This document shows, piece after piece, positions 1,003-16,549 of a DNA stretch of 32,000 nt; the first letter of the stretch is position 1, and every line of letters begins with the position of its first letter. This stretch comes from Pyrolobus fumarii 1A (GTDB lineage Archaea > Thermoproteota > Thermoprotei_A > Sulfolobales > Pyrodictiaceae), in contig NC_015931.1 in assembly GCF_000223395.1 (NCBI RefSeq), forward strand, positions 450,001 through 482,000, in the 5' to 3' direction. The notes under the pieces were generated by a model that was given only the letters and a program-made list of their open reading frames with translations, was not told where the DNA came from and did not search any database. Position numbers and translations under genes: made by a program.

Positions 1003-1488
1003 CTAGAGTGTGATTGGTTTTGGTGGTGTTCTTGTCGTCTTGTCGCATAGGGTCTCCGCCCTGTTTATCCTCTGCTGCTCTTCGTGCGGGATTGGCGTGT
1101 ATATCGTCGTGTATCCTCTCCTAACCGAGTACATGGCTGCTATTATGGAGGCTAGTTTGCGGCCCCCGGTGACGTCTATTATGGCGTGTTTGGCGCCTCT
1201 CGTTGCCTCCTCTAGCTTCTCGAGGAGCTCGTTTATGCCCTCCTCGTCCGTGACGTCGTCAACCCTCAGCGCGTGCACGTGTATCGTGGTGCTTGGCGCT
1301 AGTGGTGGTTTGTCCGTGCCGGGGCATGGGCAGGTCCTGGCTATCTCTATCGCCTCGTGTACTGGTGCCCGCCTAGTCGCCACGATGTGAACCTCTGTGG
1401 GTGTAGCTGCGTTGGCACGTAGCGCGCAGAGCACCGTGTGGAGGACTCCCGGAGACATCCCGAGTAGCACGACGAGCCTTGTGCCCAC
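1003..1488 (-). CDS. Stand-alone CARF-domain protein (Cas_NE0113-like), a possible cyclic-oligoadenylate sensor or ring nuclease
   Basis: The N-terminal LVVLLGMSPGVLHTVLCAL matches the GxSPxV...AL start of CARF/NE0113-type proteins. The motif IIDVTGGRKLASIIAAM matches the CARF D-x-T-G-G-x-K strand-loop-helix. At 161 aa there is no room for an effector domain. Confidence 0.65.
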   Translation of the reverse strand: MGTRLVVLLGMSPGVLHTVLCALRANAATPTEVHIVATRRAPVHEAIEIARTCPCPGTDKPPLAPSTTIHVHALRVDDVTDEEGINELLEKLEEATRGAKHAIIDVTGGRKLASIIAAMYSVRRGYTTIYTPIPHEEQQRINRAETLCDKTTRTPPKPITL

Positions 1489-1569
1489 GGCGCCGCGCCC
1501 CCGTGGTAGCCTTTAGCGCGTCTCGCGCTTGTTGTGCCCTCTGCCGTGGCGTAGTCGCGCTCTAGATTA

Positions 1570-3252
1570 GTGTGGGTGTCTTTCCCCTCCTGCTCGAGGC
1601 GGGGCTCTGGCTGCATGGAGGGTCATGAGCCTCTCCTGCCTCTCTATGCTGGTGTTGGCGTCGCGGCTGTGAGGGTGTTCGGGTGGAGTGTTGGGGCGGA
1701 TGGCGTCCCGGTCTCTTGGGACCCGTTGGAGTGGATGGCTTGGCTCCGTTGGCCCCGCGAGGCTGTGGAGGCGTTCTCGACGCTCTATGGCCGCGTGTCA
1801 AGCGGGTGCGAGCGTGTCTCCCTGGTCTACCTGGACGCGGGGTCTCGCTCGTCGCCAGAGGCCCGCCGGAGCGTCTTCGCCGTGAAGCTCGCGGTGGTGC
1901 ACCGGGTGTCGGTGGGTGGCGTTGTTGAGGAGCGTGTTGTGCACCCGTTGTTGAGGGGTGAGGGTGGGGCGGGGCTCCCTCTGCTCGTGGGCCGCGGGGG
2001 AGACCGGGCGAGGCAGGCTATCACCTACATTGTGGAGCTCGGGGCTGTCTACTCGCTGCTCCGCGGTGGTTGCGTGCTAGTCCTTAAGCACGGGCCTCTC
2101 GCGCAGCAGCTGCAACAGTACCTGCGGCCCAGCTACGACCTTGACGCTGACGTGCTGCACTCTGCGCTCGTATACTCGGGCGTCGAGCGCGACGAGGCTG
2201 ACGCGATTGTGGATGCGGCTAGGGTTGAGGGTGGGATGGTCAACGCCGGTGTGGCTATACTCGAGCTGCTCTCTCGCATAGCGCGTCTAGCCGCGAGCGA
2301 CGGGTCTGTGGCGGTGGCGGGCGTCACTGAGGACGTGACGGGTAGCCGTGTGCTAGCCTCGAGGCTCCTAGCCGAGGCTGCGAGGGCCGCGCTCGACGCG
2401 TATGAGGGCGGTGTGTTGAAGATCGACGGGCTGCGCTCCACAATCGCTCCGAGGATAGCGAGTCTCGTGAGGCTCGGCCGCGCGGCGCTAGACCGTCTGT
2501 GCGGGGACGGGGGGTGCCTATCCAGGTGCCTGGGCCTAGGCGGCATGGATGACCGGGAGCTGCAGGCGTTTACGGTTGGTCTCGTGGAGGCGCTCCACCG
2601 TAGGCTCTTCTACGAGAGGCAGGTGCCGCTAAGGTCGGCTTCCATTGCTGCGCTCGAGGCGGCGGTATACACGGAGGTTGGCAGGCTCCTCGAGACTAGC
2701 GACGCGTCCATAATCCTCGCTGGGCATTGCCTCGCCGGCCCCATAGCCGTGACGAGAGCCTGGCGTAGGGACGCTCTGCTCGAACTCCTAAAGTGGACCG
2801 TGAGCGACGTTAAGCGCGACGTGAAGAAGGAGCTTTTGACTAGCTTCGCAGACGTGTATGCCTATGTCGTGCCGGGGGATCCGCCTACATGCGCGCGGAT
2901 AGAGGAGCTTCTCGAGTCGAGAGGGTTGGCGGGGAGGGTAGACCCGTGGCTCCTCGTTAGGCTCCAGAGGGTCTACCCGCCGGTCCGCGTCGACACCGTC
3001 GCGCCCAGTGGCGAGGAGGAGGGCGTGGCGCTCGAGAAGCTGAGGGGGCTAGCTGCGCTCGTCTACCTGGCCTCCAGCGTATCCCTCCACGGGTACCCGG
3101 CTGGGCTCCTGGTGGCTGATGCCAGGTCTCGTGTGACGCTAGGCGAGGCGTCTATACTCGAGGAGCTTGCGAGGAGGCTCGCAGAAAGGTTACAGCCCTA
3201 CGCGGCCATCCTAAGACACTGGAGGTTGCGACGAGCAACGGTGGTAGACTAG
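1570..3252 (+). CDS. NurA-like nuclease domain protein (long, divergent). The alternative ATG start at 1615 is plausible
   Basis: This 560-aa ORF ends 2 nt before the HerA-like gene. NurA-like landmarks include LVYLDAGSRSS (N-terminal acidic strand), VLVLKHGPL (position of the DGSL-type motif), VAGVTEDVTGSRVL (GVsKxS-like) and the C-terminal HGYPAGLLVADARSRV (YPyxL..AD/H..aR-like). The motif mapping was done by eye only. Confidence 0.5.
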   Translation: MWVSFPSCSRRGSGCMEGHEPLLPLYAGVGVAAVRVFGWSVGADGVPVSWDPLEWMAWLRWPREAVEAFSTLYGRVSSGCERVSLVYLDAGSRSSPEARRSVFAVKLAVVHRVSVGGVVEERVVHPLLRGEGGAGLPLLVGRGGDRARQAITYIVELGAVYSLLRGGCVLVLKHGPLAQQLQQYLRPSYDLDADVLHSALVYSGVERDEADAIVDAARVEGGMVNAGVAILELLSRIARLAASDGSVAVAGVTEDVTGSRVLASRLLAEAARAALDAYEGGVLKIDGLRSTIAPRIASLVRLGRAALDRLCGDGGCLSRCLGLGGMDDRELQAFTVGLVEALHRRLFYERQVPLRSASIAALEAAVYTEVGRLLETSDASIILAGHCLAGPIAVTRAWRRDALLELLKWTVSDVKRDVKKELLTSFADVYAYVVPGDPPTCARIEELLESRGLAGRVDPWLLVRLQRVYPPVRVDTVAPSGEEEGVALEKLRGLAALVYLASSVSLHGYPAGLLVADARSRVTLGEASILEELARRLAERLQPYAAILRHWRLRRATVVD

Positions 3253-3254
3253 CC

Positions 3255-5288
3255 TTGAGCAATGTACAGCCCATGGGCTACATAGTGAGGCTCTCGAGCT
3301 ACGTGGAGGCGGAGGCCGTGGCGCTGACGCCGCTCGAGGAGAGCCTCCAGAGGGGCCAGATAGTAGAGGTGGTTGACCACAGCCAGGGCGGCGCGAGGTA
3401 CCTCGCGGTCATAACGGACGTCTCGGAGACCGAGCCGCACCCCCTCATAGACCCGGAGGCGTTCCAGGCCCTCCTCCGCGAGGCTAGAGCCGAGCACGTT
3501 GATACGACCGAGCTCCTCCGCGCGATGCTCGACCCCACGAGCCCCTTCCGCTTCGCCACAACAGTCCACCTCAGGCTACGCCTCCTAGGCAGGTTGGTGG
3601 GCGACGCACTCGGGGATATCGGCAGGCCGCCTAGACCCAGGTCCACCATCCACCTGCCCGAGGCGGGCCTACTAGAGCAGCTCCTCTGCCCTAACCGCCC
3701 CAGTGTGGTCCCCATAGGGAGGCTCTCGCTGAGGAGCGACGTGAGAGTCTGCATAGACCTCGATAGGCTCAACACGCACATGGCGGTCCTCGGGCAGACG
3801 GGGTCGGGGAAGACGGAGACCGTCAAGAGGCTCGTCTACGAGACTATACGCTCGTGGCTGGCGCGGGGCACCCCACGCCGAGGAGTCATCGTGATGGACG
3901 TCGCAGGGGAGTATACGGGCTACCCCTACCGCCCGCCGAGCGCCACACCCCTCCTCGAGGCCCTGGCGCGCCACGGTATACAGCCGCGCCTCACGATAAT
4001 CGTGCCCTTCGACCCGCTCTACGCGCACCCTGCTCTCGTCGAGGCCGGAGTAGCCGAGCTGGCAGGGAGGCTCTCGAGGCTATACCGTGGAGCCCGCGCG
4101 GCGGGCGTAGTCCTCCACGCGAGGAGCCCGACAGCCACGCTGGTACACCCGCCGCCGCGCACCGAGCTAACCCCCGCCGAGCTCCAAGCCCTCCTCGCCA
4201 CCGCCGAGATGCTCGTAGTGGCGGCGCCGCTGCCCGACACGCTACCCCTGGGCCTCCTCCTCGAGCTCGGCGCGTTCAACGAGGACGCGGAGTACACGGC
4301 TGCCCTACACGAGGCCCTAGAGGAGCTAGAGGAGTATAACATCGTGTCGTCGGTTACGCTGCTAAGCGAGCTGGCTAGGATAGCTGTCGACGCCCGCCCC
4401 CGCAGCAGAGACTTCACATACCCCACGAGCATAGACACAACCTCCATATGCAGCGCCGCCGACGAGGCCCAACTGCTGAACGCGATAAGGTCGCAGCTGT
4501 CCATGGCCATAGGGGCTGACCCTCAGAGCCTAGCCGGTACTAGGCTACAGGAGCCCAGCGTGTGGGTATCGAGGCTGACTGGCGACTACCTCGACCCAAG
4601 CCTAGAGGCCCTGAGGGCGACATGCGCCTCGAGCCCGGGGCGCATACGCGAGAGGCTCTTGGGCGTGGCGCGAGCCGCCTACCGCATAGCGAGGAGCGAC
4701 GTGAGATCCAGGAAGGCGCTCTACAGGAGGCTCTCTAGGATAGCCAGGGTAGCGTCACCCGCCCTCAACCCGCTCGCGGCTAGACTCATAGCCTGGAGGG
4801 TCTACAACGGCTTCACGATACTCCACCTGGCGCCGCCCTCAGTAGGCGGCGTCAACCACCCGCTCGTAACCTGGCTCCTCAACGAGGTGTTCGAGGAGGC
4901 TGTTAGGGGCTACACGCTCGACCAGAGGATGCTCGTTGTCGTAGAGGAGGCTCACAACCTGGCACCGTCACGCGAGGACACCTTCTCCAAGAGGATGTTG
5001 GTCAGGTACGCGAGGGAGGGGAGAAAGTGGGGACTAGGCCTCGTGATAGTCACGCAGAGGCCGGTCGGCGTAGACCCCACCATACTCAGCCAAACAGCCA
5101 CACTAGTAGCACTCCGCATGACAAACCCGGAGGACATCCAGGCGGTGAAAAGCAGCGTCGAGAGCGCCACAGCAGAACTCGTCGAGAGACTACCAGACCT
5201 AGACCGCGGCGAGGCACTAGCCTCGGGCAACGCGCTACCAGAACGCCGCATACCACTCCTAGCCAGGATAGACATGGTCGGCCACTAG
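3255..5288 (+). CDS. HerA/DUF87-type hexameric ATPase (FtsK-HerA superfamily)
   Basis: Walker A is VLGQTGSGKTETVKRL (about 3793-3816). Walker B is MLVVVEEAHNLAP (about 4931-4960), followed by REGRKWGLGLVIVTQRP. The N-terminus looks like a HAS barrel (GYIVRL...GQIVEV...YLAVITDV). The stretch between Walker A and B is unusually long, about 370 aa. The TTG at 3255 or the ATG at 3273 could be the start. Confidence 0.8.
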   Translation: MSNVQPMGYIVRLSSYVEAEAVALTPLEESLQRGQIVEVVDHSQGGARYLAVITDVSETEPHPLIDPEAFQALLREARAEHVDTTELLRAMLDPTSPFRFATTVHLRLRLLGRLVGDALGDIGRPPRPRSTIHLPEAGLLEQLLCPNRPSVVPIGRLSLRSDVRVCIDLDRLNTHMAVLGQTGSGKTETVKRLVYETIRSWLARGTPRRGVIVMDVAGEYTGYPYRPPSATPLLEALARHGIQPRLTIIVPFDPLYAHPALVEAGVAELAGRLSRLYRGARAAGVVLHARSPTATLVHPPPRTELTPAELQALLATAEMLVVAAPLPDTLPLGLLLELGAFNEDAEYTAALHEALEELEEYNIVSSVTLLSELARIAVDARPRSRDFTYPTSIDTTSICSAADEAQLLNAIRSQLSMAIGADPQSLAGTRLQEPSVWVSRLTGDYLDPSLEALRATCASSPGRIRERLLGVARAAYRIARSDVRSRKALYRRLSRIARVASPALNPLAARLIAWRVYNGFTILHLAPPSVGGVNHPLVTWLLNEVFEEAVRGYTLDQRMLVVVEEAHNLAPSREDTFSKRMLVRYAREGRKWGLGLVIVTQRPVGVDPTILSQTATLVALRMTNPEDIQAVKSSVESATAELVERLPDLDRGEALASGNALPERRIPLLARIDMVGH

Positions 5289-5518: not shown

Positions 5519-6694
5519 TCAGGGTTTGTGCCCATGCAGCTTGGCCACGGCTTCCTGGTATACCCTGTGCGGGTCTAGATCGAGGAGAGTCTCTACACCC
5601 TCCCGGTATCCCAGCTCTATCACCGTACGGTAGACTGGGTATTGGGGCTTGTAGCGTATGCCGTCGCGCCCCCGCGGGTACACCGGATAAACTATGTTGT
5701 AGGTTGTGAGTATCTGGCCTAGTGCGTGTAAGTGTGGCTCGCGGAGAGGCGCGATGTCGTTGTTTATGAGTTCGTAGGCTAGTCTTATCACTTCTCGCGG
5801 CTCAAGCTCACGGCGGAAGATCTCCGCGCTTAGCACGTTCCTAGCCCGGCTGAGCCCAGTCTCAACCTCCGCTATCCACATTGGCACACGTTCCTCCACC
5901 ACTGTGTTTCTGTCGAGCATGCACAACTCGGGCAGGTAGCCAGGCGTCCCGCCCACAAGACCCAGCACCTCGTCCACATCTACACCGCAGCTTTTCAAGC
6001 TCACATACTCCTTGTAGAGAGCCCTGAAATGATCGACATCCAGATGCTCGACTAGCATCCATGCCGTGGAGTACCCGTGGAGCTTTGACAAGACGAGGTC
6101 TGTAGCCGTGAAACCCTCGCTTACAGTTAACACTATAGTGATGTTCGAGTAGTGCGGATCCTTTGCTAGTAGGCCTGCGAGAGCCTCCAGGTCGTCAAGA
6201 GCATCGAGGTACTTGCTCGCCGGGTCGCTTTTATGCATGTAGCGGGGCAGCAGGTGGAACTCGTCTATAAAGAGGATTATCCGCGTGGAGGCATACTCGC
6301 GGATAACGTCTATGAGTACATCGATGGCATGGTATGTCAGCTGGAGTAGCCCAGTAGACCTATCGTCGAGGTCTTTGAGAACTTCCAGAAGCCGCTCGGC
6401 TAGATTCTTTTTATCGACTAGTAGACCTCTCGTCTCAAGCGCCCTGACAAGATGCTGACCCCGGAGCCGACGCGCATCCACGTACACGGCTGCTATGCGG
6501 CCACGCTCTTGTAGCCCCCGGAGCCAGTACCGTACGAGCTCGCTCTTCCCGACGCCACGCGGCCCATAGACTATAACCGTCCTATGAGAGAAGACGAGTT
6601 TATCCAGCCTCTCGAGCTCCACGAGCCTATCGTAGAAGGCTGTGCCCAGCCCCGTACGGTAACCCCGATCAACATACACCGCTACCATCTCCAC
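5519..6694 (-). CDS. Archaeal AAA+ ATPase (Arch_ATPase/PF01637-like, with a C-terminal DUF234-type winged helix)
   Basis: The N-terminus reads FYDRLVELERLDKLV...VIVYGPRGVGKSELV (Walker A). ILFIDEFHLL is Walker B. The length of 391 aa is typical of the family. Confidence 0.8.
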   Translation of the reverse strand: MEMVAVYVDRGYRTGLGTAFYDRLVELERLDKLVFSHRTVIVYGPRGVGKSELVRYWLRGLQERGRIAAVYVDARRLRGQHLVRALETRGLLVDKKNLAERLLEVLKDLDDRSTGLLQLTYHAIDVLIDVIREYASTRIILFIDEFHLLPRYMHKSDPASKYLDALDDLEALAGLLAKDPHYSNITIVLTVSEGFTATDLVLSKLHGYSTAWMLVEHLDVDHFRALYKEYVSLKSCGVDVDEVLGLVGGTPGYLPELCMLDRNTVVEERVPMWIAEVETGLSRARNVLSAEIFRRELEPREVIRLAYELINNDIAPLREPHLHALGQILTTYNIVYPVYPRGRDGIRYKPQYPVYRTVIELGYREGVETLLDLDPHRVYQEAVAKLHGHKP

Positions 6695-7452: not shown

Positions 7453-8988
7453 CTAGCTCGTATGCTTCCGCGTCTTGATCTTGAACTTCTCGAGGTGTAT
7501 GCCTATAGTCTGCCAGGCGTTGGTGCCTCTTAGCATACCGCGCGTCTTCTCGGCTAGGCACGCTACGTGGAGTAGGGCGTATGCTGCTCTAGCGGCTCTC
7601 GCCCTAACGTCTATCTCGTCCCATCTCCACGGCTCGAGGCTTTGCCTGGCGGAGAGCACTCTCGTTATCTTGGAGGAGGGGTGGCTCCGCCATAGCGTGT
7701 ATGCCCCGGTGTCCTCGGTTACCAGTGTATACTTCTCGAGTATCAGGGGATCCATTCTTATCATCGCTGTGTCGGCTGGCGGCGGGTCGCTTGGCAGCAC
7801 AGGGGTCGTGGCCTGAAGCTCTCGTAGTAGCACGCCGGCTACTATCCTGCGTAGCACCTTCTCGGGGTCTCGGAGCCCAGCGTTCCTCTTGAGAGCCTCG
7901 GCTAGGCTCCTCTCTATCTCTGCCACGACGGCCCACGGTAGGGCTATGGATGCGCCCATTAGAGCCTCTATGTGCACCCCCTTGTAGACTAGGTTGGCGT
8001 CTACCAGCAGCCTATCACCCAGCGTGTAGAGCAGTGCCTCTCCGCGTCCATCCTCGCTCCCGGCTAGCCACCAGTAGAGGCCAGACGCCTCTGCGAGGGC
8101 GCGCACAACGAGGCCTGGTATCCCCTTGTCGCTCGAGGCTAGCTTCCCGGCATCCTCTGCCGCCTTCACCCAGCTCTCGGGTTTGCACCAGTCGTCCACG
8201 GTTATCTCTCCGAGGGGCGTCTCCAAGCTGAGCACGCACGGCGTACACTCGGCCCTGTCATAATCGTACCTGGCGGTGCCGCTGCACTCGATGTTCACCT
8301 GGAGGGCCTTGACGGCTATGCATGCGCGTAGGCTACCAGCCTCTACACCCACAGACTCTAGCAGCTCCCTCACCCTCAGCTTCCTCAACCATTTTGGCGC
8401 CTCGCGCCCCCTGGGAGGCTCCCACACCGGGTGTATGACGTAGAGGGGCTCGAGGGGCCTGGGTACGAGCGGGTAGGGTAGCCCAGTCCAAGGCCCCCAC
8501 CAGAAGTCCAGGTGGACCACGTTCGCCTCCGAGCCCTCGACGGACCCCGGCGTTACGCTCGCCAACGCGAGGGCAGCCGCGAGCCTCCTAGACCCGGGCG
8601 AGGTGCAGGACACTACACGCGGGAACCTGGCCGCGAGGTACTCTACAAGCCTCCTAGCAGCTCTCTCCAGGATACCGGGCGCGTCGCTAACCTCCACAAT
8701 AACGCCGGGGATGGCCACACCGGCATCGCTAACCACGCGCAGCGCACGCTCAGAGTCCGGCCTCGTCCTCGGAGTCGCCAGCACAACTACACCATCAACG
8801 CCATACTCCTCCGCCAGTCTCAGTATACACGAGATGAAGGAGAGCCTTGACTCCCTACCGACACACCCAGCCGCAACAGCCACAACACTAGCCCCACCCA
8901 ACACCGAGCCGATCACAGCCTCCGCGTCGCGCGGCAATCTCCCAGTCTCAACACCATCGAGGCTAGACACTCTAACTACACTCGCCAA
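7453..8988 (-). CDS. 511-aa protein with an N-terminal CARF-like Rossmann domain and a C-terminal PIN-like nuclease domain
   Basis: The N-terminal layout parallels the CARF at 1003-1488: VVAVAAGC..SFISCILRL..VVVLATPRT...EVSDAPGILERAARRLVEYLAARFPRVVSCTSPGSRRLAAALALA versus LVVLLGMSPGV...DDVTDEEGINELLEKLEEAT..AIIDVTGGRKLASIIAAM. The C-terminus carries PIN-type acidic residues in order: LLVDANLVYKG, AVVAEIERS, PADTAMIRMD, LVTEDTGA. The start is a TTG at 8988. Confidence 0.5.
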   Translation of the reverse strand: MASVVRVSSLDGVETGRLPRDAEAVIGSVLGGASVVAVAAGCVGRESRLSFISCILRLAEEYGVDGVVVLATPRTRPDSERALRVVSDAGVAIPGVIVEVSDAPGILERAARRLVEYLAARFPRVVSCTSPGSRRLAAALALASVTPGSVEGSEANVVHLDFWWGPWTGLPYPLVPRPLEPLYVIHPVWEPPRGREAPKWLRKLRVRELLESVGVEAGSLRACIAVKALQVNIECSGTARYDYDRAECTPCVLSLETPLGEITVDDWCKPESWVKAAEDAGKLASSDKGIPGLVVRALAEASGLYWWLAGSEDGRGEALLYTLGDRLLVDANLVYKGVHIEALMGASIALPWAVVAEIERSLAEALKRNAGLRDPEKVLRRIVAGVLLRELQATTPVLPSDPPPADTAMIRMDPLILEKYTLVTEDTGAYTLWRSHPSSKITRVLSARQSLEPWRWDEIDVRARAARAAYALLHVACLAEKTRGMLRGTNAWQTIGIHLEKFKIKTRKHTS

Positions 8989-9351: not shown

Positions 9352-10443
9352 TCAATGCCGTGCACCTACTAGCTTCTCTACTGCTCTCGTTATTCTCGGG
9401 TTGTTCTTTGCGAGCCTCTTTAGCATGTTTATTGTGTCCTGGGCTGCGAGTCTTGCGGCTTCTAGCGTGACGTGTAGGTTGTGGAGGGCTAGTGCTTTGG
9501 TGTCCCACCTCATCTCGTCAAGCGTGTCGAAGCGGGTGCAGGCGGGGCACGTGCAGTACTCGGAGGGTTTCAGCCTGGAGCCCCTCGCCTCTATCCGGGC
9601 TGGTAGCCTCCCGGCGAGGTAGTGCTCGGGTGGCGTGTACCAGAGTCTCTTGGCGGCAGCTATTATGAAGGTCTTCGAGTCCATCGAGTCGCCTCCAGCC
9701 GCGTACAATAGCGGTATGTTGACTGGGGAGGCGACGCCGAGGACGTGGAGCCACGCGCCCCGGGGCAGCGCGCTCCTCGCCTCTAGTAGCCTCTCGGTGA
9801 TGTAGGCTGGGTTTCCGCGGTGCGGCACCAGCCCGCCGACCGCGAATCCGTCCACCTCGTCGAGTCTTAGCCCCGCCCTCTCGCGCAGCTCGACCGCGAG
9901 CATCTCGAGGAGGGCTCGTAGCTCGCTGGCGTCGCGGTAGTGGAGGACTATGAGCAGCTTCATGCTCCTCCTCGTCCTCAGCTGGTAGGCCAACGCCGCG
10001 TTCCTAGCCGTAACCCTCAGCCTGTTGAGGACCTCCCCGTCCATCGCGCCGTGGAGGGGGTAGTCCAGGGTGAAGGCATAGTCCGCCCCGAAGCCCTCCT
10101 GCCTCCGGAGTATAGCCTCCACGAGCTCCTCCCCGGGCTCACCCGGGCTCCTCGGCCCCCTCCCCGCCCCATGCCTCCCGGCCAGGAGCCTCGTCTTGTC
10201 CCGGATGTAGAGGAATCCGCCCGAGTCAACCCACGCAGTGACGCTGGGGTCGAGGTGGGTATCCTTACGGTGGTGTGGGCGGAGAAAGTAAGCGTTGACC
10301 ATCGCGTGGTGGTGGCCCAGGCCCTCGGGGGGCGGGCGCCAGTAGGGCGGCGTGTTGCCACCCGCACCGAGGTTATGCACCGGGACTATCACGGGCCTTA
10401 CACTTCCCACCAAGAGTATCCCGAGGAGGCGCCGCGAGCCCAA
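9352..10443 (-). CDS. Short tRNA-guanine transglycosylase (TGT) superfamily protein lacking C-terminal PUA-type domains (arcTGT catalytic-domain-only or DpdA-like)
   Basis: TGT landmarks appear in order: VIVPV..., MVNAYFL, WVDSGGFLY (the DSGGF catalytic Asp motif), FTLDYP, AVGGLVP, LHVLGVASPVNIPLLYAAGGDSMDSKTFI, and the zinc motif CTCPAC...(about 20 aa)...LHNLH. At 363 aa it is shorter than typical archaeosine TGTs. The start is uncertain (TTG at 10443 or the GTG a few codons in). Confidence 0.7.
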   Translation of the reverse strand: MGSRRLLGILLVGSVRPVIVPVHNLGAGGNTPPYWRPPPEGLGHHHAMVNAYFLRPHHRKDTHLDPSVTAWVDSGGFLYIRDKTRLLAGRHGAGRGPRSPGEPGEELVEAILRRQEGFGADYAFTLDYPLHGAMDGEVLNRLRVTARNAALAYQLRTRRSMKLLIVLHYRDASELRALLEMLAVELRERAGLRLDEVDGFAVGGLVPHRGNPAYITERLLEARSALPRGAWLHVLGVASPVNIPLLYAAGGDSMDSKTFIIAAAKRLWYTPPEHYLAGRLPARIEARGSRLKPSEYCTCPACTRFDTLDEMRWDTKALALHNLHVTLEAARLAAQDTINMLKRLAKNNPRITRAVEKLVGARH

Positions 10444-11091: not shown

Positions 11092-14000
11092 CTTTCAATT
11101 CATTCTTGGTTGTTTCGCAATACTACGTGGTGAAGAGGTGCCGCCAGAGTCAGGCATTGACCTTTCAATTCATTCTTGGTTGTTTCGAGAGCATGACGTG
11201 TGTGTCACAACCGGCAAGAAGGGCGTGTGTATCTTTCAATTCATTCTTGGTTGTTTCCAGCGCCTGCTCCTAGGCCGTGACCGTGACGAGGAGACGGTCT
11301 ATGTCACCCTTTCAATTCATTCTTGGTTGTTTCGGGTGTGGTAGCCGAACGATAGCCTGGCTAGTGATAGTGTGTACTTTCAATTCATTCTTGGTTGTTT
11401 CCCAAACTTGCCACCAATGCCTCAGCCAACACCAAAACCGTAAGCTTTCAATTCATTCTTGGTTGTTTCTCCCCGCGATTGTCGATACGCCGGGTGTCGT
11501 TACCGTTGGCTTTCAATTCATTCTTGGTTGTTTCCTGTGTCCGCGCCCGGGGACACCCCTCCCTCAGCATGTGCTCCTTTCAATTCATTCTTGGTTGTTT
11601 CCCCTTGTAGCGAGCCACGGCCAACACACCAACCCGATGCTAGTTCTTTCAATTCATTCTTGGTTGTTTCACCGCTCTACGCCACCCCCTACCTGAACGT
11701 CACGACCGGCTTTCAATTCATTCTTGGTTGTTTCACAAAACGCGCGATATATAGACGCGCGCGGCTATAATATAATATAACGCGACTTTCAATTCATTCT
11801 TGGTTGTTTCCTCGATAGCTCTACGAATCGCCTCTGAGCGATTTATTCCACGCTTTCAATTCATTCTTGGTTGTTTCACGGATACGTCTCGCACAGACGT
11901 ACCTCTATCGTCACTTTATCTTTTCTTTCAATTCATTCTTGGTTGTTTCGAAACCCTCTTGACGGGAATGTGGCAGGGCAAGTGGAACTTTCAATTCATT
12001 CTTGGTTGTTTCCTACCAACGTGCTGGTGGCCGCAGCCAGCCTAGCCCCGGACATCCTTTCAATTCATTCTTGGTTGTTTCGGCGCTGCTGGAAGCCGTG
12101 GTGGAGTCTATACCGGTGCTGGACCTTTCAATTCATTCTTGGTTGTTTCTACCCGACTGCCAGGGGAGTACACGTTTACGCCACTAGCGAGTCACCATGG
12201 GTCTTTCAATTCATTCTTGGTTGTTTCGCTGCTGCAGCCTTTATTGCACAGAACGGCTCGTAGCTTACCTTTCAATTCATTCTTGGTTGTTTCCTCGAGA
12301 GCCTCTATGAGAGCGTTAGAGGCACTAGCAAGCTCACAGTGCTTTCAATTCATTCTTGGTTGTTTCTCCAATTGCCAGGATCCTCGAGAAGGAGTTAGGT
12401 GAAGTAGCCACTTTCAATTCATTCTTGGTTGTTTCCTAGGAGTTGAAGGGTTCGAAGGCTGAGGCTGGGATGATACTTTCAATTCATTCTTGGTTGTTTC
12501 CTCGTAGGCGAGGTGTACCGCTGGCGTGCCCATCGCCATTGCCTCCTTTCAATTCATTCTTGGTTGTTTCGTAGGGGGTTGCGGGTACGCTGCATGGTTG
12601 ACGAGCCGCTGGGCTTTCAATTCATTCTTGGTTGTTTCCCGAGCCCGAAGGAGCTTGGCGCGCGCGTCTTCAAGGGCGACTTTCAATTCATTCTTGGTTG
12701 TTTCCGATGGCAACGAGGTTGACGTGCACTTCGACCACCTGGCGCACTTTCAATTCATTCTTGGTTGTTTCGCGTTGGAGAGGCTGCTGGAGGAGCGGAG
12801 GGTTGACGCGAGCTTTCAATTCATTCTTGGTTGTTTCGCGTAGACCTTCAGCAGCGCCCCCCTGCTGGCCGCCTTGCCCAGCTTTCAATTCATTCTTGGT
12901 TGTTTCCAGTAGCATGCCGCTATACTACGAAGTGTTCGTGAAGTGCCTTTCAATTCATTCTTGGTTGTTTCACGCAGTGTAACCCGGGAGAGTACGCGTT
13001 CAACGTGTCAGGTCAGCTTTCAATTCATTCTTGGTTGTTTCATCATGGACTTCTTCAACCGCGTGAGCGTCGTTGAGCATACTTTCAATTCATTCTTGGT
13101 TGTTTCCGGGGTACGTGGTCACAACCGCATCACCGTGTGTGCAGCGAACCTTTCAATTCATTCTTGGTTGTTTCAAACCAGCGCCGTGCCTCGGAAACGG
13201 TGATTATGTAGAAATAGCCTTTCAATTCATTCTTGGTTGTTTCCTACGAATAGCATAGGCGGGCACCGTATCTACCTACCCGAGTATGGCTTTCAATTCA
13301 TTCTTGGTTGTTTCGCAACCCGGCCTAGCTGTAGCCATGCTTGTATGCTTCGCCATATACCTTTCAATTCATTCTTGGTTGTTTCAATAGCTCCACTACT
13401 TGGTCAACGGCGTACCCCATCCACTTCTTTCAATTCATTCTTGGTTGTTTCAGGCGAAGCCCGACGAGGTTGCCGCCGAGATATCTGGTATCCCTTTCAA
13501 TTCATTCTTGGTTGTTTCTAGGATAGAGACGGTGAAGGGCAACGGGGCGTTCTTCGAGACTAGTGCTTTCAATTCATTCTTGGTTGTTTCTGATTCTCCC
13601 ACCCGGCTGAGCGGTGATGACGGCAGCCTCCACTCTTTCAATTCATTCTTGGTTGTTTCAGGGCAGTAGGATTAGCGCCAGGAGTGGCGCGAGGGTTATC
13701 AAAAACTTTCAATTCATTCTTGGTTGTTTCTACCGACGAGCAGACGGCTACGCCGCGCACCCAGCGAGAGGCTATCGACTTTCAATTCATTCTTGGTTGT
13801 TTCTCCGCGCGCGAGATCCATCTCTCCCGCCCCCGCGCTTCGGGTAGCTTTCAATTCATTCTTGGTTGTTTCTCGCTCGAGGAGGTGAGGAGGCTGGCCC
13901 AGGAGGGTAGCTTTCAATTCATTCTTGGTTGTTTCGTCGCGTAGTATACGCGCCGCGGTGAGCACCCCGAGCTGCTCCTTTCAATTCATTCTTGGTTGTT

Positions 14001-16549
14001 TCCTGGCCGTGGCCCCTCTCGCAATCGGCCTCAGCTTCCTCCCTTTCAATTCATTCTTGGTTGTTTCGGAGAAGATGGCGGTCTCAGGGCCGCCGCCCGC
14101 GAGGCGGTCCCACTTTCAATTCATTCTTGGTTGTTTCATAGGGGGTCGTCTGGCAACACGACCTTCGAGATAACGTTCAACGTGACGAGCTTTCAATTCA
14201 TTCTTGGTTGTTTCCATCGAGGCTCTGGACTACCTCGCCGAGATGATAGACTATAGGGCTTTCAATTCATTCTTGGTTGTTTCGCCAGGCCCGAGGCGGT
14301 GAGGTTTGACAACGTGGAGAGGAACGGACTTTCAATTCATTCTTGGTTGTTTCACCTTGGCGTCCGGCAGTGGCGGGGCCGACGGCCCCACCAGGCCCCG
14401 CCTTTCAATTCATTCTTGGTTGTTTCGGATTGTTCTAGCATCTGCTCCGAACCCAAATCATAATTCGCTTTCAATTCATTCTTGGTTGTTTCCGTGGCAT
14501 AGTGATAGTGGCAACGCATACTGACATATTCCACGTCGGTCCTTTCAATTCATTCTTGGTTGTTTCTACGGCAGGAGCGCCGAGCAGGTTGAGCTCGCGA
14601 GCCTACTTTCAATTCATTCTTGGTTGTTTCTCTAGCTCTACGCTCACGTTGAGGGGCACGGCTCTCACCCCCTTTCAATTCATTCTTGGTTGTTTCCATG
14701 GGCGCGGTTGAGACCTTCGAGGACAGGATAGCCTCGACTTTCAATTCATTCTTGGTTGTTTCTCTATGGTGGATGGCGAGGACGGCGACATCTGGTACGA
14801 GCTTTCAATTCATTCTTGGTTGTTTCCCGTGTCCTGGTCACCAACCAGCTCCTAGCCCCGGGCGTGCGCGTGCAGCTCTTCGTACTTTCAATTCATTCTT
14901 GGTTGTTTCACGAGGTGAGAGACTTCACAGAGATAGCCCGCATAGTAGCAAAAACGCCTTTCAATTCATTCTTGGTTGTTTCTGGAACCGCCGCCACCGT
15001 TGGCCTGACGCTATTCGTGATTGCTTTCAATTCATTCTTGGTTGTTTCTCCGGATCCCCGCACCGCGTATAGAGGGTATGCGCGGGGGTATAACTTTCAA
15101 TTCATTCTTGGTTGTTTCACATGGAGGAGCCAAGGCTCATAACCGCGATACGCGAGAATGCTTTCAATTCATTCTTGGTTGTTTCCAGAAGTCTTACGAC
15201 GGATACTAGTGGTGCAAATAATGCTTTCAATTCATTCTTGGTTGTTTCACTACACGACCCTGCAAATTCCCATCGTGTCATAGTGTCATACTTTCAATTC
15301 ATTCTTGGTTGTTTCGCGGTCTGGAGCCCGGTGCACGGATCTACATCTACGATGTCTTTCAATTCATTCTTGGTTGTTTCCTGGCCGCCGCACTTGGCGT
15401 TGAGGGTGTGGAGGCAAGCGCTTTCAATTCATTCTTGGTTGTTTCACGAGGCAGTGTGTTAGTGACGATAGGCCGGTGTGTAGCGAGACTTTCAATTCAT
15501 TCTTGGTTGTTTCTTAACAGCGTACTTCAGCGCTTCGCGGACGCCAACGCGTACCTTTCAATTCATTCTTGGTTGTTTCCGCGTTGGTCTTGTAGCTCTC
15601 TGCGCCGGCGTCCACGCGGGAGTCGCTTTCAATTCATTCTTGGTTGTTTCCCCGCATGGGTCTACCCCTCTCCCGAGATGCGCAAGGTAGCGACCCTTTC
15701 AATTCATTCTTGGTTGTTTCGTAGCTCTCGATCCACCCGCGGAACACAGGGTCGGCATGCTTTCAATTCATTCTTGGTTGTTTCCAGCCTCACTAGAATC
15801 TCGTATATCTCGCGGGCTTGTTGTATCTTTCAATTCATTCTTGGTTGTTTCGCTCGGTGTTCAAGTCGGTGGTCTACGACCGTTGCGGGTGCGTCCAGAC
15901 TTTCAATTCATTCTTGGTTGTTTCAGTGATATGCTAGTCGGTGATTTATGGTGATAATAAACGTGCTACTTTCAATTCATTCTTGGTTGTTTCGTACTGA
16001 AAAGTGTTGGTCTACTTGATAAGCTAAGAATGTATCTTTCAATTCATTCTTGGTTGTTTCAATACAAAACAATCAAGATATTGACGGGCCTGCCTTTAGT
16101 AAATGTAACTTTCAATTCATTCTTGGTTGTTTCTTGTAATGCGGGGTGAGGGCATGAAACTGAGAGAATTAGTACTTTCAATTCATTCTTGGTTGTTTCG
16201 ACGTCGTAATGCAGATCATGACGCGGTGGTTGCTAACGCCACTCTTTCAATTCATTCTTGGTTGTTTCTGCGGATAGAGGAGGGGAGGATAACGTTTCCG
16301 ATCGGGGTGCTTTCAATTCATTCTTGGTTGTTTCAAAACGATCCGTGTCGAGTCCGGCCTCGCGATAATCAAGGTACTTTCAATTCATTCTTGGTTGTTT
16401 CAGCGTCACGTCCCAGCTTCTCCTGCCGTAGGCGGTGTACGCTGGTTGGTCTGGACTTTCAATTCATTCTTGGTTGTTTCTCGCTAGGAAGGGCCGCGAG
16501 TGGGTGGCTGCCGTGAGTTATGGGCTTTCAATTCATTCTTGGTTGTTTC
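11092..16549 (-). CRISPR. CRISPR array 1: 80 repeats and 79 spacers, transcribed from the minus strand with the leader at the right end
   Basis: The 25-bp repeat CTTTCAATTCATTCTTGGTTGTTTC (plus strand) was located by hand at 80 positions from 11092 to 16525. Spacers are 38-58 bp. Orientation is set by the ATTGAAAG 3' end of the reverse-complement repeat and by the conserved leader at 16550-16858. The repeats look identical on inspection. Confidence 0.98.

What the first reader, a model, noticed from the sequence alone, without database searches (positions are those of the whole stretch)
1003..5288. Stand-alone CARF gene back-to-back with a non-canonical NurA-like/HerA-like nuclease-ATPase pair
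Seen in sequence: a 161-aa CARF-only protein (GMSPGV... and DVTGGRK motifs) is transcribed divergently, with about 80 bp between the ORFs, from a tightly coupled two-gene operon. That operon encodes a 560-aa NurA-like protein and a 677-aa HerA/DUF87 ATPase with a very long insert between Walker A and B. Established knowledge: housekeeping archaeal herA-nurA sits in the herA-mre11-rad50-nurA repair operon. Neither mre11 nor rad50 is here, and the neighbours are CRISPR and defence genes. HerA-type ATPases partnered with nucleases or other effectors (Sir2-HerA, DUF4297-HerA) act as antiviral systems in bacteria. Small CARF proteins such as Crn1 sense or degrade cyclic oligoadenylates. Inference: this could be a cOA-linked or CRISPR-accessory NurA/HerA DNA-degrading defence module, which to my knowledge has not been characterised. 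The position that normally reads DGSL in NurA reads KHGPL here, so the catalytic status is also in question.
Basis: partly seen in the sequence, partly recalled or inferred. Interest (0 to 1): 0.7.

Follow-up and report, generated by a model that had tools for sequence, protein, structure and literature searches.

The report
Conserved CARF, NurA-like, HerA gene trio
In the archaeon Pyrolobus fumarii, a small CRISPR signal-degrading protein sits beside a very divergent DNA-cutting enzyme and its motor partner; related hot-spring archaea keep this trio together, similar CRISPR-linked pairs have been noted since 2012, and I found no experiment showing what they do.

Summary
The window comes from Pyrolobus fumarii 1A. 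It encodes a 161-aa stand-alone CARF protein of the Crn1 small ring-nuclease family (1003-1488, minus strand). This gene is divergent from a coupled pair: a 545-aa protein (1615-3252) and a 677-aa HerA ATPase (3255-5288).

No sequence model recognises the 545-aa protein. Its high-confidence AlphaFold model, however, matches only NurA nucleases and a chain of the TdpAB complex at the top of a PDB search. It belongs to a rare family of 42 cluster representatives among 1.84 billion proteins.

In 29 of 34 aligned members the third catalytic position, Asp in canonical NurA, is His (KHGPL). The other acidic positions are invariant.

The family splits into two clades. In the clade that holds this window, a Crn1-type CARF gene is adjacent in all 6 informative loci, in three different gene orders. 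Four of its 9 loci touch CRISPR arrays or cas genes. The sister clade has no CARF.

The cOA link and the DNA-degrading function remain inferences. CRISPR-associated nurA-CARF-herA clusters were described bioinformatically in 2012-2018, so this is a new, strongly diverged variant of a known but uncharacterised kind.

The parts
1003..1488 (-). Stand-alone CARF protein of the Crn1 small ring-nuclease type (CARF_m13). It is Pyrfu_0485, 161 aa.
   Evidence: PADLOC CARF_m13 at 1.2e-44. NCBIfam cas_Crn1 at 1.1e-12, which is 48 bits and below the cut-off of 125. Full-length phmmer match to Sso2081 (7yhl, 7ygh) and 7z55 at E about 1e-10. S12, D78, R110 and K111 align with the Crn1 residues S11, D75, R105 and K106 (PMC9638899). 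D78, R110 and K111 are invariant in the 6 module-linked CARFs.
1489..1614 (.). Divergent intergenic region between the CARF gene and the NurA-like gene. It is 126 bp to the ATG at 1615, or 81 bp to the first in-frame GTG at 1570.
   Evidence: Sequence read. The start at 1615 matches the RefSeq protein exactly and the N-termini of homologues. No promoter analysis was attempted, because the available scanner covers sigma-70-type promoters and is not suited to archaea.
1615..3252 (+). Divergent NurA-fold (RNase H-like) nuclease, 545 aa, WP_048191423, annotated 'hypothetical protein'.
   Evidence: There is no Pfam, NCBIfam or PADLOC hit. The family has 42 representatives among 1.84 billion proteins. 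The AF2 model has pLDDT 90.4 and pTM 0.90. The top Foldseek PDB hits are all NurA: 2ygk_A at E 2e-5, prob 1.00, TM 0.54 by target length, then 3tai, 3taz and 3tal. These are followed by 8wfd_G of the TdpAB complex. The invariant residues are D74 (strand 1), E141 (helix 1), G160 of KHGPL (end of strand 4), E239, D363, D502 and S505.
3255..5288 (+). HerA-family hexameric ATPase/translocase, 677 aa, Pyrfu_0486. It starts 2 nt after the NurA-like stop codon.
   Evidence: Pfam DUF87 at 1.4e-16 and HerA_C at 4.9e-9. PADLOC HerA at 6.9e-42. Walker A, Walker B and the REGRK and QRP motifs are invariant in 17 relatives. The AF2 model has pLDDT 82. Top Foldseek hits are T. kodakarensis HerA in the HerA-NurA complex (4e-20), TdpA of TdpAB, and Sso HerA. 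The junction was read.
7453..8988 (-). Context only: a CARF-PIN protein (CARF_m3). It is a candidate cOA-activated effector in the same locus.
   Evidence: PADLOC CARF_m3--CARF_PIN at 4.7e-190. It was not found next to the module in the other loci.
9352..10443 (-). Context only: a TGT-like (tRNA-guanine-transglycosylase superfamily) protein, 363 aa. It recurs next to the module in two other loci.
   Evidence: Pfam TGT at 1.7e-12. It is below the TgtA and DpdA cut-offs. It is 52% identical to the gene directly upstream of the NurA-like gene in L011/L023. A homologue lies directly downstream of HerA in L010.
11092..16549 (+). Context only: a CRISPR array of 80 repeats (CTTTCAATTCATTCTTGGTTGTTTC), 5.8 kb from the HerA stop codon.

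Best explanation
This is a conserved three-gene CRISPR-accessory module.

The 545-aa protein is a strongly diverged NurA-type RNase H-fold nuclease. By analogy with archaeal HerA-NurA and with TdpAB, it most likely forms a complex with a hexamer of the adjacent HerA translocase. HerA would feed DNA into the nuclease, so that the pair shreds DNA using ATP.

The neighbouring Crn1-type CARF protein most likely dimerises as Crn1 does, binds cyclic tetra-adenylate (cA4) made by a type III CRISPR system, and probably cleaves it. This would tie the machine to cOA signalling, either as its cA4-sensing, self-limiting regulatory partner or as its dedicated off-switch.

Shown here: the folds, the conserved catalytic and ATPase residues, the tight gene coupling, the conserved three-gene linkage and the CRISPR context.

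Inferred: formation of the complex, DNA degradation, cA4 binding and cleavage, and any control of the nuclease by cA4.
For: Fold.
- The NurA-like model is confident, with pLDDT 90.4.
- Its seven best PDB matches are all NurA, followed by a chain of the TdpAB complex.

Catalytic site.
- The predicted strand and helix order places invariant D74, E141, H/D159 and D502 at the four canonical RNase H-like catalytic positions.
- A gapless motif, GYPxxLxxx[H/D]xxx[K/R][I/V], is shared with the M. jannaschii, T. kodakarensis and P. furiosus NurA proteins.

HerA.
- It has intact Walker A and B motifs.
- Its best structural matches are HerAs that partner NurA-type nucleases.

Gene linkage.
- The NurA-like and HerA genes are adjacent in 20 of the 22 loci that carry both. 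L017 and L022 have one opposite-strand gene between them.
- Their pairwise identities correlate at r = 0.86; 3 of 720 permutations reach this value.

CARF.
- It is a full-length Crn1 homologue with S12, D78, R110 and K111 conserved (PMC9638899).
- It is adjacent in 6 of 6 informative clade-A loci, in three arrangements: divergent upstream, co-directional upstream, and downstream overlapping the HerA stop.
- It co-diverges with HerA (r = 0.66, 13 of 720) and with the NurA-like protein (r = 0.68, 6 of 720).

CRISPR and cas context.
- Window: arrays and type I-A genes.
- L012: an array 100 bp upstream.
- L013: an array, then Csx1 and Cas6.
- L023: Cmr3.

Literature. An independent nurA-csm6(CARF)-herA linkage in Thermoproteales uses a CARF that the authors equate with the APE2256 family (PMC3396285). 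The CARF here matches the Pfam Cas_APE2256 model only weakly, at E 0.042, so it appears to belong to a different family.
Against: - No sequence method links the 545-aa protein to NurA. hhalign probability is below 1%. TM-scores are modest at 0.34 and 0.54, because the protein carries about 200 extra residues.
- The third catalytic Asp is His in most members, so activity or metal use may differ.
- A sister clade of six loci has the same pair with no CARF and no CRISPR nearby. It has two unrelated small proteins instead. The pair can therefore work without a CARF.
- Three CARF-bearing loci (L002, L007, L018) show no CRISPR or cas gene within the DNA available.
- No Cas10 cyclase is in the window, and I could not verify one in the genome.
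- The P. fumarii CARF has Gln where Crn1 has Tyr133.
- No experiment on any CRISPR-associated NurA-HerA was found.
Confidence: 0.5

Rival explanations
1. Independent innate defence nuclease. The NurA-like/HerA pair would be a stand-alone anti-invader system working like TdpAB, Sir2-HerA or DUF4297-HerA. The Crn1-type gene would be an ordinary ring nuclease serving the CARF effectors of the locus, such as the CARF-PIN protein. It would sit nearby only because defence genes cluster.
For: The sister clade keeps the pair without any CARF or CRISPR. The HerA fold matches anti-phage HerAs (DUF4297-HerA, Sir2-HerA, TdpA) almost as well as repair HerAs. PADLOC HerA models from defence systems score up to 6.9e-42. 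The window holds a CARF-PIN protein that would need a ring nuclease. L007 sits among toxin-antitoxin genes.
Against: The CARF gene is immediately adjacent in 6 of 6 informative clade-A loci. This includes loci with no visible cas genes, and loci where its start overlaps the HerA stop. It keeps the linkage through three rearrangements and co-diverges with the pair. The CARF-PIN gene is not conserved next to the module.
Confidence: 0.2
2. Spacer-acquisition or array-maintenance helper, as Bernick et al. proposed in 2012. The nuclease-translocase pair would resect DNA ends to supply prespacer substrates, or would repair the array after integration. cOA signalling through the CARF would tune this.
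For: The module lies directly beside CRISPR arrays in L012 and L013 and near arrays and cas1/cas4 in the window. The Pyrobaculum homologous arrangement is reported to be always next to an array (PMC3396285). In S. islandicus the CARF regulator Csa3a is reported to activate adaptation genes together with nurA and herA (cited in PMC8616872).
Against: Most loci of the family have no array within reach. L013 and L023 link the module to interference and signalling genes (Csx1, Cas6, Cmr3) rather than to cas1 or cas2. Published surveys class the CRISPR-linked pairs as co-evolving with type III interference modules (PMC6546367).
Confidence: 0.15
3. Modification-dependent restriction. The recurrent TGT-like protein, with a radical-SAM enzyme in L023, would mark host DNA with a 7-deazaguanine-type base. 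The NurA-like/HerA machine would then destroy unmarked DNA, in the way TdpAB reads TdpC-made phosphorothioate.
For: A TGT-like gene lies near the module in 3 of the 7 clade-A loci compared (window, L011/L023, L010), twice immediately adjacent. The window copy keeps the CxCxxC zinc motif and the Asp that aligns with the DLFDS motif of archaeosine TGT. There is a weak DpdA match at 0.0038. A chain of the TdpAB complex is among the top structural matches of the NurA-like protein.
Against: The TGT-like gene is absent from the DNA available for L002, L007, L013 and L018 and from clade B. The L011 copy lacks the zinc motif. The scores favour tRNA enzymes over DpdA. The radical-SAM genes of L002 and L011 are only generically related. 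No DNA substrate is shown.
Confidence: 0.08
4. Housekeeping paralogue for double-strand-break repair. This would be simply the organism's herA-nurA end-resection pair, or a duplicate of it.
For: It has the same two folds and the same gene coupling as the repair pair. I could not confirm a canonical herA-mre11-rad50-nurA operon elsewhere in the genome.
Against: No mre11 or rad50 gene is in the 32-kb window. The HerA scores 112.7 and 117.2 bits against cut-offs of 800 and 970 for the repair equivalogs. The nuclease fails the Pfam NurA model. The family is very rare, with 42 representatives in 1.84 billion proteins, whereas repair NurA and HerA are reported in all known thermophilic archaea (PMC4641729). 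In L017 the nuclease gene is broken.
Confidence: 0.04

Closest known systems
CRISPR-associated nurA-csm6(CARF)-herA clusters of Thermoproteales, and the 'Cas NurA'/'Cas HerA' accessory families (Bernick 2012, PMC3396285; Vestergaard 2014, PMC3973734; Shah 2018 clusters 57/58, PMC6546367)
   Same: A NurA-type nuclease, a HerA ATPase and a small CARF gene are clustered beside CRISPR arrays or cas genes in hyperthermophilic Crenarchaeota. The pair is a paralogue distinct from the repair operon. I found no experimental characterisation of its function.
   Different: - The Pyrobaculum nucleases match Pfam NurA at 1e-9 to 1e-16 (Table A2 of PMC3396285). This family matches no model at all.
- It is 480-570 aa long and has His at the third catalytic position.
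- The CARF here is the Crn1 CARF_m13 type and not the APE2256/'csm6' type. It lies outside the pair, not between the two genes.
- The PADLOC 'type III coevolved' HerA model matches mainly the N-terminal third, at 1.1e-20.
- No Thermoproteales or Thermosphaera protein carried a name among the HerA relatives found.
Canonical archaeal HerA-NurA end-resection complex (S. solfataricus 2YGK/4D2I; P. furiosus 3TAI; T. kodakarensis 9X1L/9X1M)
   Same: These are the best structural matches for both proteins. They share the RNase H-like core with Asp on strand 1 and Glu on helix 1, the GYP...[H/D] C-terminal motif, and translationally coupled genes.
   Different: There is no mre11 or rad50 neighbour. 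The nuclease has about 100-200 extra residues, mostly helical. Its motif III reads KHGPL rather than DGS/TL, and its motif IV has Asp where the P. furiosus, T. kodakarensis and M. jannaschii proteins have His. The HerA has about 125-175 extra residues between Walker A and Walker B. Scores lie far below the equivalog cut-offs.
Crn1 small stand-alone ring nucleases Sso2081 and Sis0455 (CARF_m13; PMC9638899, PMC12409355)
   Same: There is full-length homology at E about 1e-10. The protein is of similar size (161 aa here; the crystallised Sso2081 chains are 178-184 aa). S, D, R and K are conserved at the cA4-binding and cleavage positions.
   Different: - The score is below the NCBIfam Crn1 equivalog cut-off, 48 against 125 bits.
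- The module-linked subgroup has four invariant cysteines, including a CPCP motif.
- The P. fumarii copy has Gln at the Tyr133 position.
- It is strictly linked to a NurA-like/HerA pair. The published ring-nuclease survey (PMC12409355) analyses Crn1 within type III CRISPR loci and alongside cA4-dependent effectors.
TdpAB, the HerA-like TdpA plus a nuclease subunit of the phosphorothioate-linked tdpABC system of thermophiles (PDB 8WET/8WFD; mentioned in PMC12914056)
   Same: Both proteins hit the complex structurally: TdpA at 2.5e-19, and chain G of 8WFD at E 0.039, prob 0.90. It is a HerA-type motor with a nuclease partner in a system that PMC12914056 groups with the dnd and ssp phosphorothioate defence systems.
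   Different: No tdpC-like modification gene was identified here. This module is linked to a CARF gene and to CRISPR instead. Sequence similarity is limited to the HerA core, at 2.5e-12.
Sir2-HerA (Nezha) and DUF4297-HerA anti-phage systems
   Same: A HerA hexamer is paired with an effector enzyme encoded next door. The HerA fold matches at E about 1e-16 to 1e-17.
   Different: The effector here is a NurA-fold nuclease, not Sir2 or DUF4297. The lineage is archaeal, and the module is linked to a CARF gene.

Membership tests
NurA nuclease (Pfam PF09376) | Significant match to the NurA sequence model | tested here: not met
   None of the 34 family members has a Pfam hit at E <= 1. A profile search against PDB sequences found nothing at E <= 10. 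hhalign against the M. jannaschii NurA, the Halar_0183 NurA and a three-sequence NurA profile gave probability below 1%.
NurA nuclease (Pfam PF09376) | RNase H-like NurA fold | tested here: met
   The AF2 model has pLDDT 90.4. The top 7 Foldseek PDB hits are all NurA; the best is 2ygk_A at E 2e-5, prob 1.00, with TM 0.54 by target length and 0.34 by query length. Large insertions lower the TM-score.
NurA nuclease (Pfam PF09376) | Catalytic Asp-Glu-Asp (Sso D58, E116, D133; PMC3326311) | tested here: inconclusive
   D74 and E141 are invariant, at strand 1 and helix 1. The third position is His159 in 29 of 34 members and Asp in 5. The mapping rests on motif and secondary-structure order, not on a residue-level superposition.
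NurA nuclease (Pfam PF09376) | Encoded next to, and working with, a HerA ATPase | tested here: met
   A 2-nt gap separates the two genes in the window. They are adjacent in 20 of the 22 loci that carry both. L017 and L022 have one intervening opposite-strand gene. Physical complex formation is not testable here.
NurA nuclease (Pfam PF09376) | Toroidal dimer with nuclease activity on DNA | not testable with these tools
   Only single-chain prediction is available, and there is no biochemistry.
HerA/FtsK-type hexameric ATPase | DUF87 and HerA_C domains above the Pfam gathering score | tested here: met
   DUF87 scores 61.7 bits against a cut-off of 23.2. HerA_C scores 35.8 bits against 22.
HerA/FtsK-type hexameric ATPase | Intact Walker A, Walker B and arginine-finger region | tested here: met
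   GQTGSGKT, VVEEAH, REGRKWG and QRP are invariant in 17 relatives.
HerA/FtsK-type hexameric ATPase | HerA subunit fold | tested here: met
   Foldseek gives 9x1m_A at 4e-20, 8wet_A at 2.5e-19 and 4d2i_A at 5.3e-18, all with prob 1.00.
Housekeeping double-strand-break repair HerA (NCBIfam equivalogs NF040937, NF040819) | Score above the equivalog cut-off | tested here: not met
   The scores are 112.7 bits against 800 and 117.2 bits against 970.
Housekeeping herA-mre11-rad50-nurA operon | mre11 and rad50 genes adjacent | tested here: not met
   No such gene is in the 32-kb window. All long ORFs were scanned.
Anti-phage HerA (NCBIfam NF042943, NF042944) | Score above the equivalog cut-off | tested here: not met
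   The scores are 98.7 bits against 800 and 108.6 bits against 850.
Crn1 ring nuclease (CARF_m13, small stand-alone type) | CARF_m13 family membership | tested here: met
   The PADLOC CARF_m13 model matches at 1.2e-44 over residues 3-149. CARF_m13 is equated with the Sso2081/Sis0455 group in PMC9638899 and PMC12409355.
Crn1 ring nuclease (CARF_m13, small stand-alone type) | NCBIfam cas_Crn1 equivalog cut-off | tested here: not met
   The score is 48 bits against a cut-off of 125. RefSeq nevertheless names the protein 'CRISPR-associated ring nuclease'.
Crn1 ring nuclease (CARF_m13, small stand-alone type) | Key residues S11, D75, R105 and K106 (PMC9638899) | tested here: met
   S12, D78, R110 and K111 align with them. 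D78, R110 and K111 are invariant in the 6 module CARFs; Ser is Ala in L018. Tyr133 is Gln in P. fumarii.
Crn1 ring nuclease (CARF_m13, small stand-alone type) | Binds and cleaves cA4 | not testable with these tools
   This needs biochemistry.
CRISPR-associated HerA/NurA accessory pair (Bernick 2012; Shah 2018 clusters 57/58) | Located beside CRISPR arrays or cas genes | tested here: met
   Window, L012, L013 and L023. That is 4 of 9 clade-A loci and none of 6 clade-B loci.
CRISPR-associated HerA/NurA accessory pair (Bernick 2012; Shah 2018 clusters 57/58) | Sequence membership in the published clusters | tested here: inconclusive
   The PADLOC HerA model 'Type III coevolved' matches at 1.1e-20; its best-scoring stretch covers residues 109-221. 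No PADLOC model matches the nuclease. The published member lists were not available as text.
TdpAB-type restriction | Partner DNA-modification gene (tdpC) | not tested
   No model for TdpC was available. Only structural similarity to the TdpAB complex was seen.

The most novel reading that the evidence does not exclude
The stand-alone Crn1-type CARF dimer is not merely an off-switch. It would be the cA4 receptor subunit that acts in trans to switch a NurA-like/HerA DNA-shredding motor on, and it would time the motor out by cleaving its own ligand. To my knowledge, no separately encoded CARF protein has yet been shown to gate a motor-nuclease complex. In some lineages a TGT-like base-exchange enzyme encoded next door might in addition mark self DNA.
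Probability: 0.25. Interest if true: 0.8.

Novelty: new variant of a known kind. Interest (0 to 1): 0.5.

Why it matters
CRISPR-linked NurA-HerA pairs have been listed as accessory genes for more than a decade, and I found no report of a tested function. This family gives a clean test case.

- It has a strict three-gene unit. The CARF partner has solved close homologues, so cA4 binding and cleavage are easy to assay.
- It has a natural control: the sister clade carries the same pair but no CARF.

If cA4 gates the pair, it would add an ATP-driven DNA-degrading machine to the known cOA effectors. It would also show that a small ring-nuclease-type CARF can act as a separate sensor subunit.

The family also shows that NurA-type nucleases can drift beyond the reach of every sequence model tried here. 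The gene was missed in the first annotation of this genome and is still labelled 'hypothetical'. It carries His in place of the third catalytic Asp, and Asp where three other archaeal NurAs have a conserved His. This is relevant to annotation and to nuclease mechanism.

Tried and rejected
- Word-indexed homology search with the 560-aa ORF found nothing. This was a tool limitation, because the exhaustive HMMER search found 42 relatives.
- The one genome-collection scan, made with HerA, returned only an unrelated Bathyarchaeota HerA-like locus. It did not return P. fumarii itself, so the canonical repair operon could not be looked for.
- Alignments A1 and A3 were too divergent for locus scans. 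A clade-level alignment worked.
- A profile re-search with the HerA alignment at E <= 1e-20 added no new members. I set the threshold too strictly to see distant HerAs such as the Thermoproteales ones.
- hhalign of the family profile against NurA sequences taken from archaeal plasmids and from PDB alignments was not significant. Only a short motif match could be read off.
- I considered that the small divergent genes in L003 and L005 were decayed CARFs. I rejected this: hhalign probability is 1% and 0.1%. The L003 gene belongs to an unrelated conserved family X.
- I considered that the radical-SAM genes near the module in L002 and L011 were orthologues. I rejected this: they are 27% identical over the generic core only.
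- Phage, plasmid and viral-contig searches for the module were all negative.
- Supplementary tables of three papers that might list P. fumarii loci are not held as text.
- Model coordinates are not exposed, so no residue-level superposition on NurA was possible.

Full report
SOURCE AND ANATOMY

Exact protein look-ups show that the window comes from Pyrolobus fumarii 1A. Three genes make up the finding.

- 1003-1488 (minus strand) encodes a 161-aa protein, Pyrfu_0485.
- 1615-3252 (plus strand) encodes a 545-aa protein, WP_048191423, annotated 'hypothetical'. The original GenBank annotation did not call it: the protein accessions of Pyrfu_0485 and Pyrfu_0486 are consecutive.
- 3255-5288 (plus strand) encodes a 677-aa protein, Pyrfu_0486.

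The RefSeq start and the N-termini of homologues support the ATG at 1615. The divergent gap is therefore 126 bp, not about 80 bp. The nuclease stop codon and the HerA start are 2 nt apart.

The rest of the window holds the following:
- a STAND-like ATPase (5519-6694);
- a CARF-PIN protein (7453-8988);
- a TGT-like protein (9352-10443);
- an 80-repeat CRISPR array (11092-16549);
- a second STAND-like ATPase;
- cas1 and cas4/csa1;
- a Csa3-like regulator;
- a 32-repeat array in the opposite orientation (23827-25977);
- a type I-A interference cassette.

No mre11 or rad50 gene is present.

THE CARF PROTEIN

The CARF protein matches the PADLOC CARF_m13 model at 1.2e-44. It aligns over its whole length with the solved Crn1 ring nuclease Sso2081 and with the chain of entry 7z55, at E about 1e-10.

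CARF_m13 is the clade of the small stand-alone ring nucleases Sso2081 and Sis0455. In these enzymes S11, D75, R105 and K106 bind and cleave cA4 (PMC9638899, PMC12409355). The corresponding residues S12, D78, R110 and K111 are present here.

The score is below the NCBIfam Crn1 equivalog cut-off, 48 against 125 bits. Tyr133 of the C-terminal lid is Gln. I therefore read it as a Crn1-family protein that very probably binds cA4 and probably cleaves it.

THE HerA PROTEIN

- Its Pfam DUF87 and HerA_C matches are above threshold.
- The Walker A, Walker B and arginine-finger motifs are invariant across 17 relatives.
- The AF2 model has pLDDT 82.
- Its best structural matches are T. kodakarensis HerA in the HerA-NurA complex, TdpA of TdpAB, and S. 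solfataricus HerA. The DUF4297- and Sir2-partnered HerAs follow.
- It is not the housekeeping orthologue by score: 112.7 bits against a cut-off of 800.
- The Walker A to Walker B distance is about 378 residues, against roughly 200-250 in solved HerAs.

THE 545-aa PROTEIN

Pfam, NCBIfam, PADLOC, a profile search of PDB sequences and hhalign against NurA sequences all give nothing.

An exhaustive HMMER search of 1.84 billion cluster representatives found only 42 relatives. Most full-length members are about 480-570 aa. All 10 clusters looked up are unnamed and from metagenomes.

With an alignment of 34 relatives, AlphaFold gives a confident model, with pLDDT 90.4 and pTM 0.90. In a Foldseek search of the PDB the seven best hits are all NurA. 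The best is S. solfataricus 2YGK at E 2e-5 and probability 1.00, followed by P. furiosus 3TAI, 3TAZ and 3TAL. The eighth hit is a chain of the TdpAB complex. TM-scores are modest, 0.54 by target length, because the protein carries about 200 extra, mostly helical, residues.

The invariant residues fall where an RNase H-like nuclease needs them:
- D74 on the first strand (VDAGSR);
- E141 on the first long helix;
- position 159 at the end of the fourth strand (KHGPL);
- D502 on a C-terminal helix.

S. solfataricus NurA uses D58, E116 and D133 (PMC3326311).

Position 159 is His in 29 of 34 members and Asp (KDGPL) in 5. This supports its equivalence to the DGS/TL Asp.

The C-terminal motif also matches without gaps:
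- window: GYPAGLLVADARSRV;
- M. jannaschii plasmid NurA: GYPRYLKDAHNKAKI;
- T. kodakarensis NurA: GYFRPLQRAHEGVKI;
- P. furiosus NurA: GYLRPLQLAHHGVKI.

The family therefore appears to carry His where NurA has Asp, and Asp where these three NurAs have His. This residue mapping is an inference from motif and secondary-structure order. Strict conservation of these residues argues that the nuclease is active rather than decayed.

CONSERVATION OF THE TRIO

Gene neighbourhoods of HerA relatives and one metagenome scan gave 22 loci, about 16 of them distinct. HMM mapping shows the nuclease and HerA adjacent in all but L017 and L022, where one opposite-strand gene lies between them. In L014 the order is reversed, and in L017 the nuclease gene is broken.

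By pairwise identity the family splits into two clades.

Clade A holds the window, L002, L007, L009, L010, L012, L013, L018 and L011/L023.
- HerA identities are 31-50%.
- A Crn1-type CARF gene is adjacent in all six loci with enough flanking DNA, in three arrangements.
- It is divergent upstream in the window, L002 and L007.
- It is co-directional upstream in L018.
- It is downstream of HerA in L013 and L011/L023, overlapping the HerA stop in L023.
- Pairwise CARF identities correlate with those of HerA (r = 0.66; 13 of 720 label permutations reach it) and of the nuclease (r = 0.68; 6 of 720).
- Four clade-A loci touch CRISPR-Cas. The window has arrays and type I-A genes. L012 has an array 100 bp upstream. 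L013 has an array followed by Csx1 and Cas6. L023 has Cmr3.

Clade B holds L003, L005, L016, L017, L020 and L022.
- HerA identities are 55-89%.
- It has no CARF and no CRISPR within reach, and it sits among housekeeping genes.
- It carries two other conserved small proteins, X and Y, which match no family model. X is unrelated to CARF.

The module was not found in phage, plasmid or viral-contig collections.

MECHANISM

The best-supported reading is a NurA-type nuclease/HerA translocase machine that degrades DNA and is coupled to type III cOA signalling through its own Crn1-type CARF partner.

The strictness of the CARF linkage argues for a dedicated partner rather than a neighbour by chance. 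The linkage holds in loci with no visible cas genes, through three gene orders, and with overlapping reading frames. So does the independent linkage of Thermoproteales nurA-herA pairs to a CARF that Bernick et al. equate with the APE2256 family (PMC3396285). The CARF here matches the Pfam Cas_APE2256 model only at E 0.042.

The data cannot say whether the CARF protein activates the machine on binding cA4 or only removes cA4.

Against any obligatory role, clade B works without a CARF. No Cas10 lies in the window, and nothing here is biochemical.

I put 0.5 on the cOA-coupled DNA-degrading module. The rivals are:
- an innate stand-alone defence nuclease with a merely co-located ring nuclease (0.2);
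- a helper for spacer acquisition or array repair, as Bernick et al. proposed (0.15);
- a modification-dependent restriction system using the recurrent TGT-like gene (0.08);
- a housekeeping repair paralogue (0.04).

COMPARISON WITH WHAT IS KNOWN

[quoted passage not shown] 'Cas HerA' and 'Cas NurA' were listed as accessory families specific to types I and III in 2014 (PMC3973734). They were listed as 'type III coevolved' clusters in 2018 (PMC6546367) and again in 2023 (PMC10910872). I found no experimental study of any of them.

The present family is of the same kind. It is a distinct and much more diverged lineage:
- the nuclease is invisible to all models;
- it is larger and has an altered catalytic motif;
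- the HerA is enlarged;
- the CARF is of the Crn1 type.

The verdict on novelty is therefore a new variant of a known, uncharacterised kind. Its functional inference is reasonable but unproven, and its claim of novelty is overstated.

LIMITS

- I could not check for the canonical repair operon or for Cas10 elsewhere in the genome.
- The locus sample is small and biased towards a few hot-spring metagenomes.
- Many contigs are short.
- NurA membership rests on a predicted structure and on motifs, not on significant sequence similarity.

Noticed in passing
window 9352-10443 (-); L023 5743-6834; L011 2703-3794; L010 about 3950-4180: A 363-aa TGT-superfamily protein recurs beside the module in 3 of the 7 clade-A loci compared. 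It scores below the TgtA and DpdA cut-offs. The window copy keeps the CxCxxC motif and the Asp that aligns with the DLFDS motif of archaeosine TGT. In L023 a radical-SAM gene precedes it. This may hint at a base-exchange or DNA-modification partner.
   Followed up: partly
L003 6933-8242; L005 10249-11560; L016 5142-5678; L017 12187-13661; L022 11602-13086; L018 583-1368: The CARF-less sister clade of the NurA-like/HerA family carries two conserved small proteins in place of a CARF. X is about 180 aa, with the motifs LPCNPCVRLGNY, AAIDSCKPGIV and SYRSRR. Y is about 260 aa. Neither matches any Pfam, NCBIfam or PADLOC model. Y also occurs in the CARF-bearing locus L018.
   Followed up: partly
L005 3753-5460 and L007 1-2511: A clade-B locus and a clade-A locus both lie next to LPG_synthase_TM and TatD genes. 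The module may therefore occupy the same chromosomal site in related lineages while its small partner genes were exchanged.
   Followed up: no
window 1003-1488 (-), and alignment A7 of the six module CARFs: The module-linked CARFs share four invariant cysteines (C21, C53, C55 and C148, including a CPCP motif). They could form a metal site or disulfides. Sso2081 has only the CC pair at the equivalent of positions 53-55.
   Followed up: no
window 7453-8988 (-): A 511-aa CARF_m3-PIN protein (PADLOC 4.7e-190) lies two genes from HerA. It is a likely cOA-activated RNase, which would give the ring nuclease a second possible client.
   Followed up: no
window 5519-6694 (-) and 17480-18670 (-): Two paralogous archaeal ATPase_2/STAND-like NTPases flank the first CRISPR array. 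The first also gives a weak PADLOC match to mad8.
   Followed up: no
window 11878-11924 and 25369-25411: One spacer in each of the two oppositely oriented arrays shares a 19-nt overlap on the same DNA strand. The two arrays therefore hold overlapping protospacers of one target, read from opposite strands.
   Followed up: partly
window 1615-3252; L015 6274-7910 and 7913-9948: The NurA-like gene is absent from the original GenBank annotation of P. fumarii 1A. A Logan assembly of run SRR064176 splits both this gene and HerA into two ORFs, most likely through read errors.
   Followed up: partly
L017 7567-9144, compared with L022 6975-8552: The NurA-like gene is broken into three ORFs in L017 but is intact in L022, whose HerA is 89% identical. 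This is either a pseudogene or an assembly error.
   Followed up: no
window 22868-23542 (+): A Csa3-like CARF plus HTH regulator lies between cas4/csa1 and the second array. It is the third CARF protein in the window.
   Followed up: no
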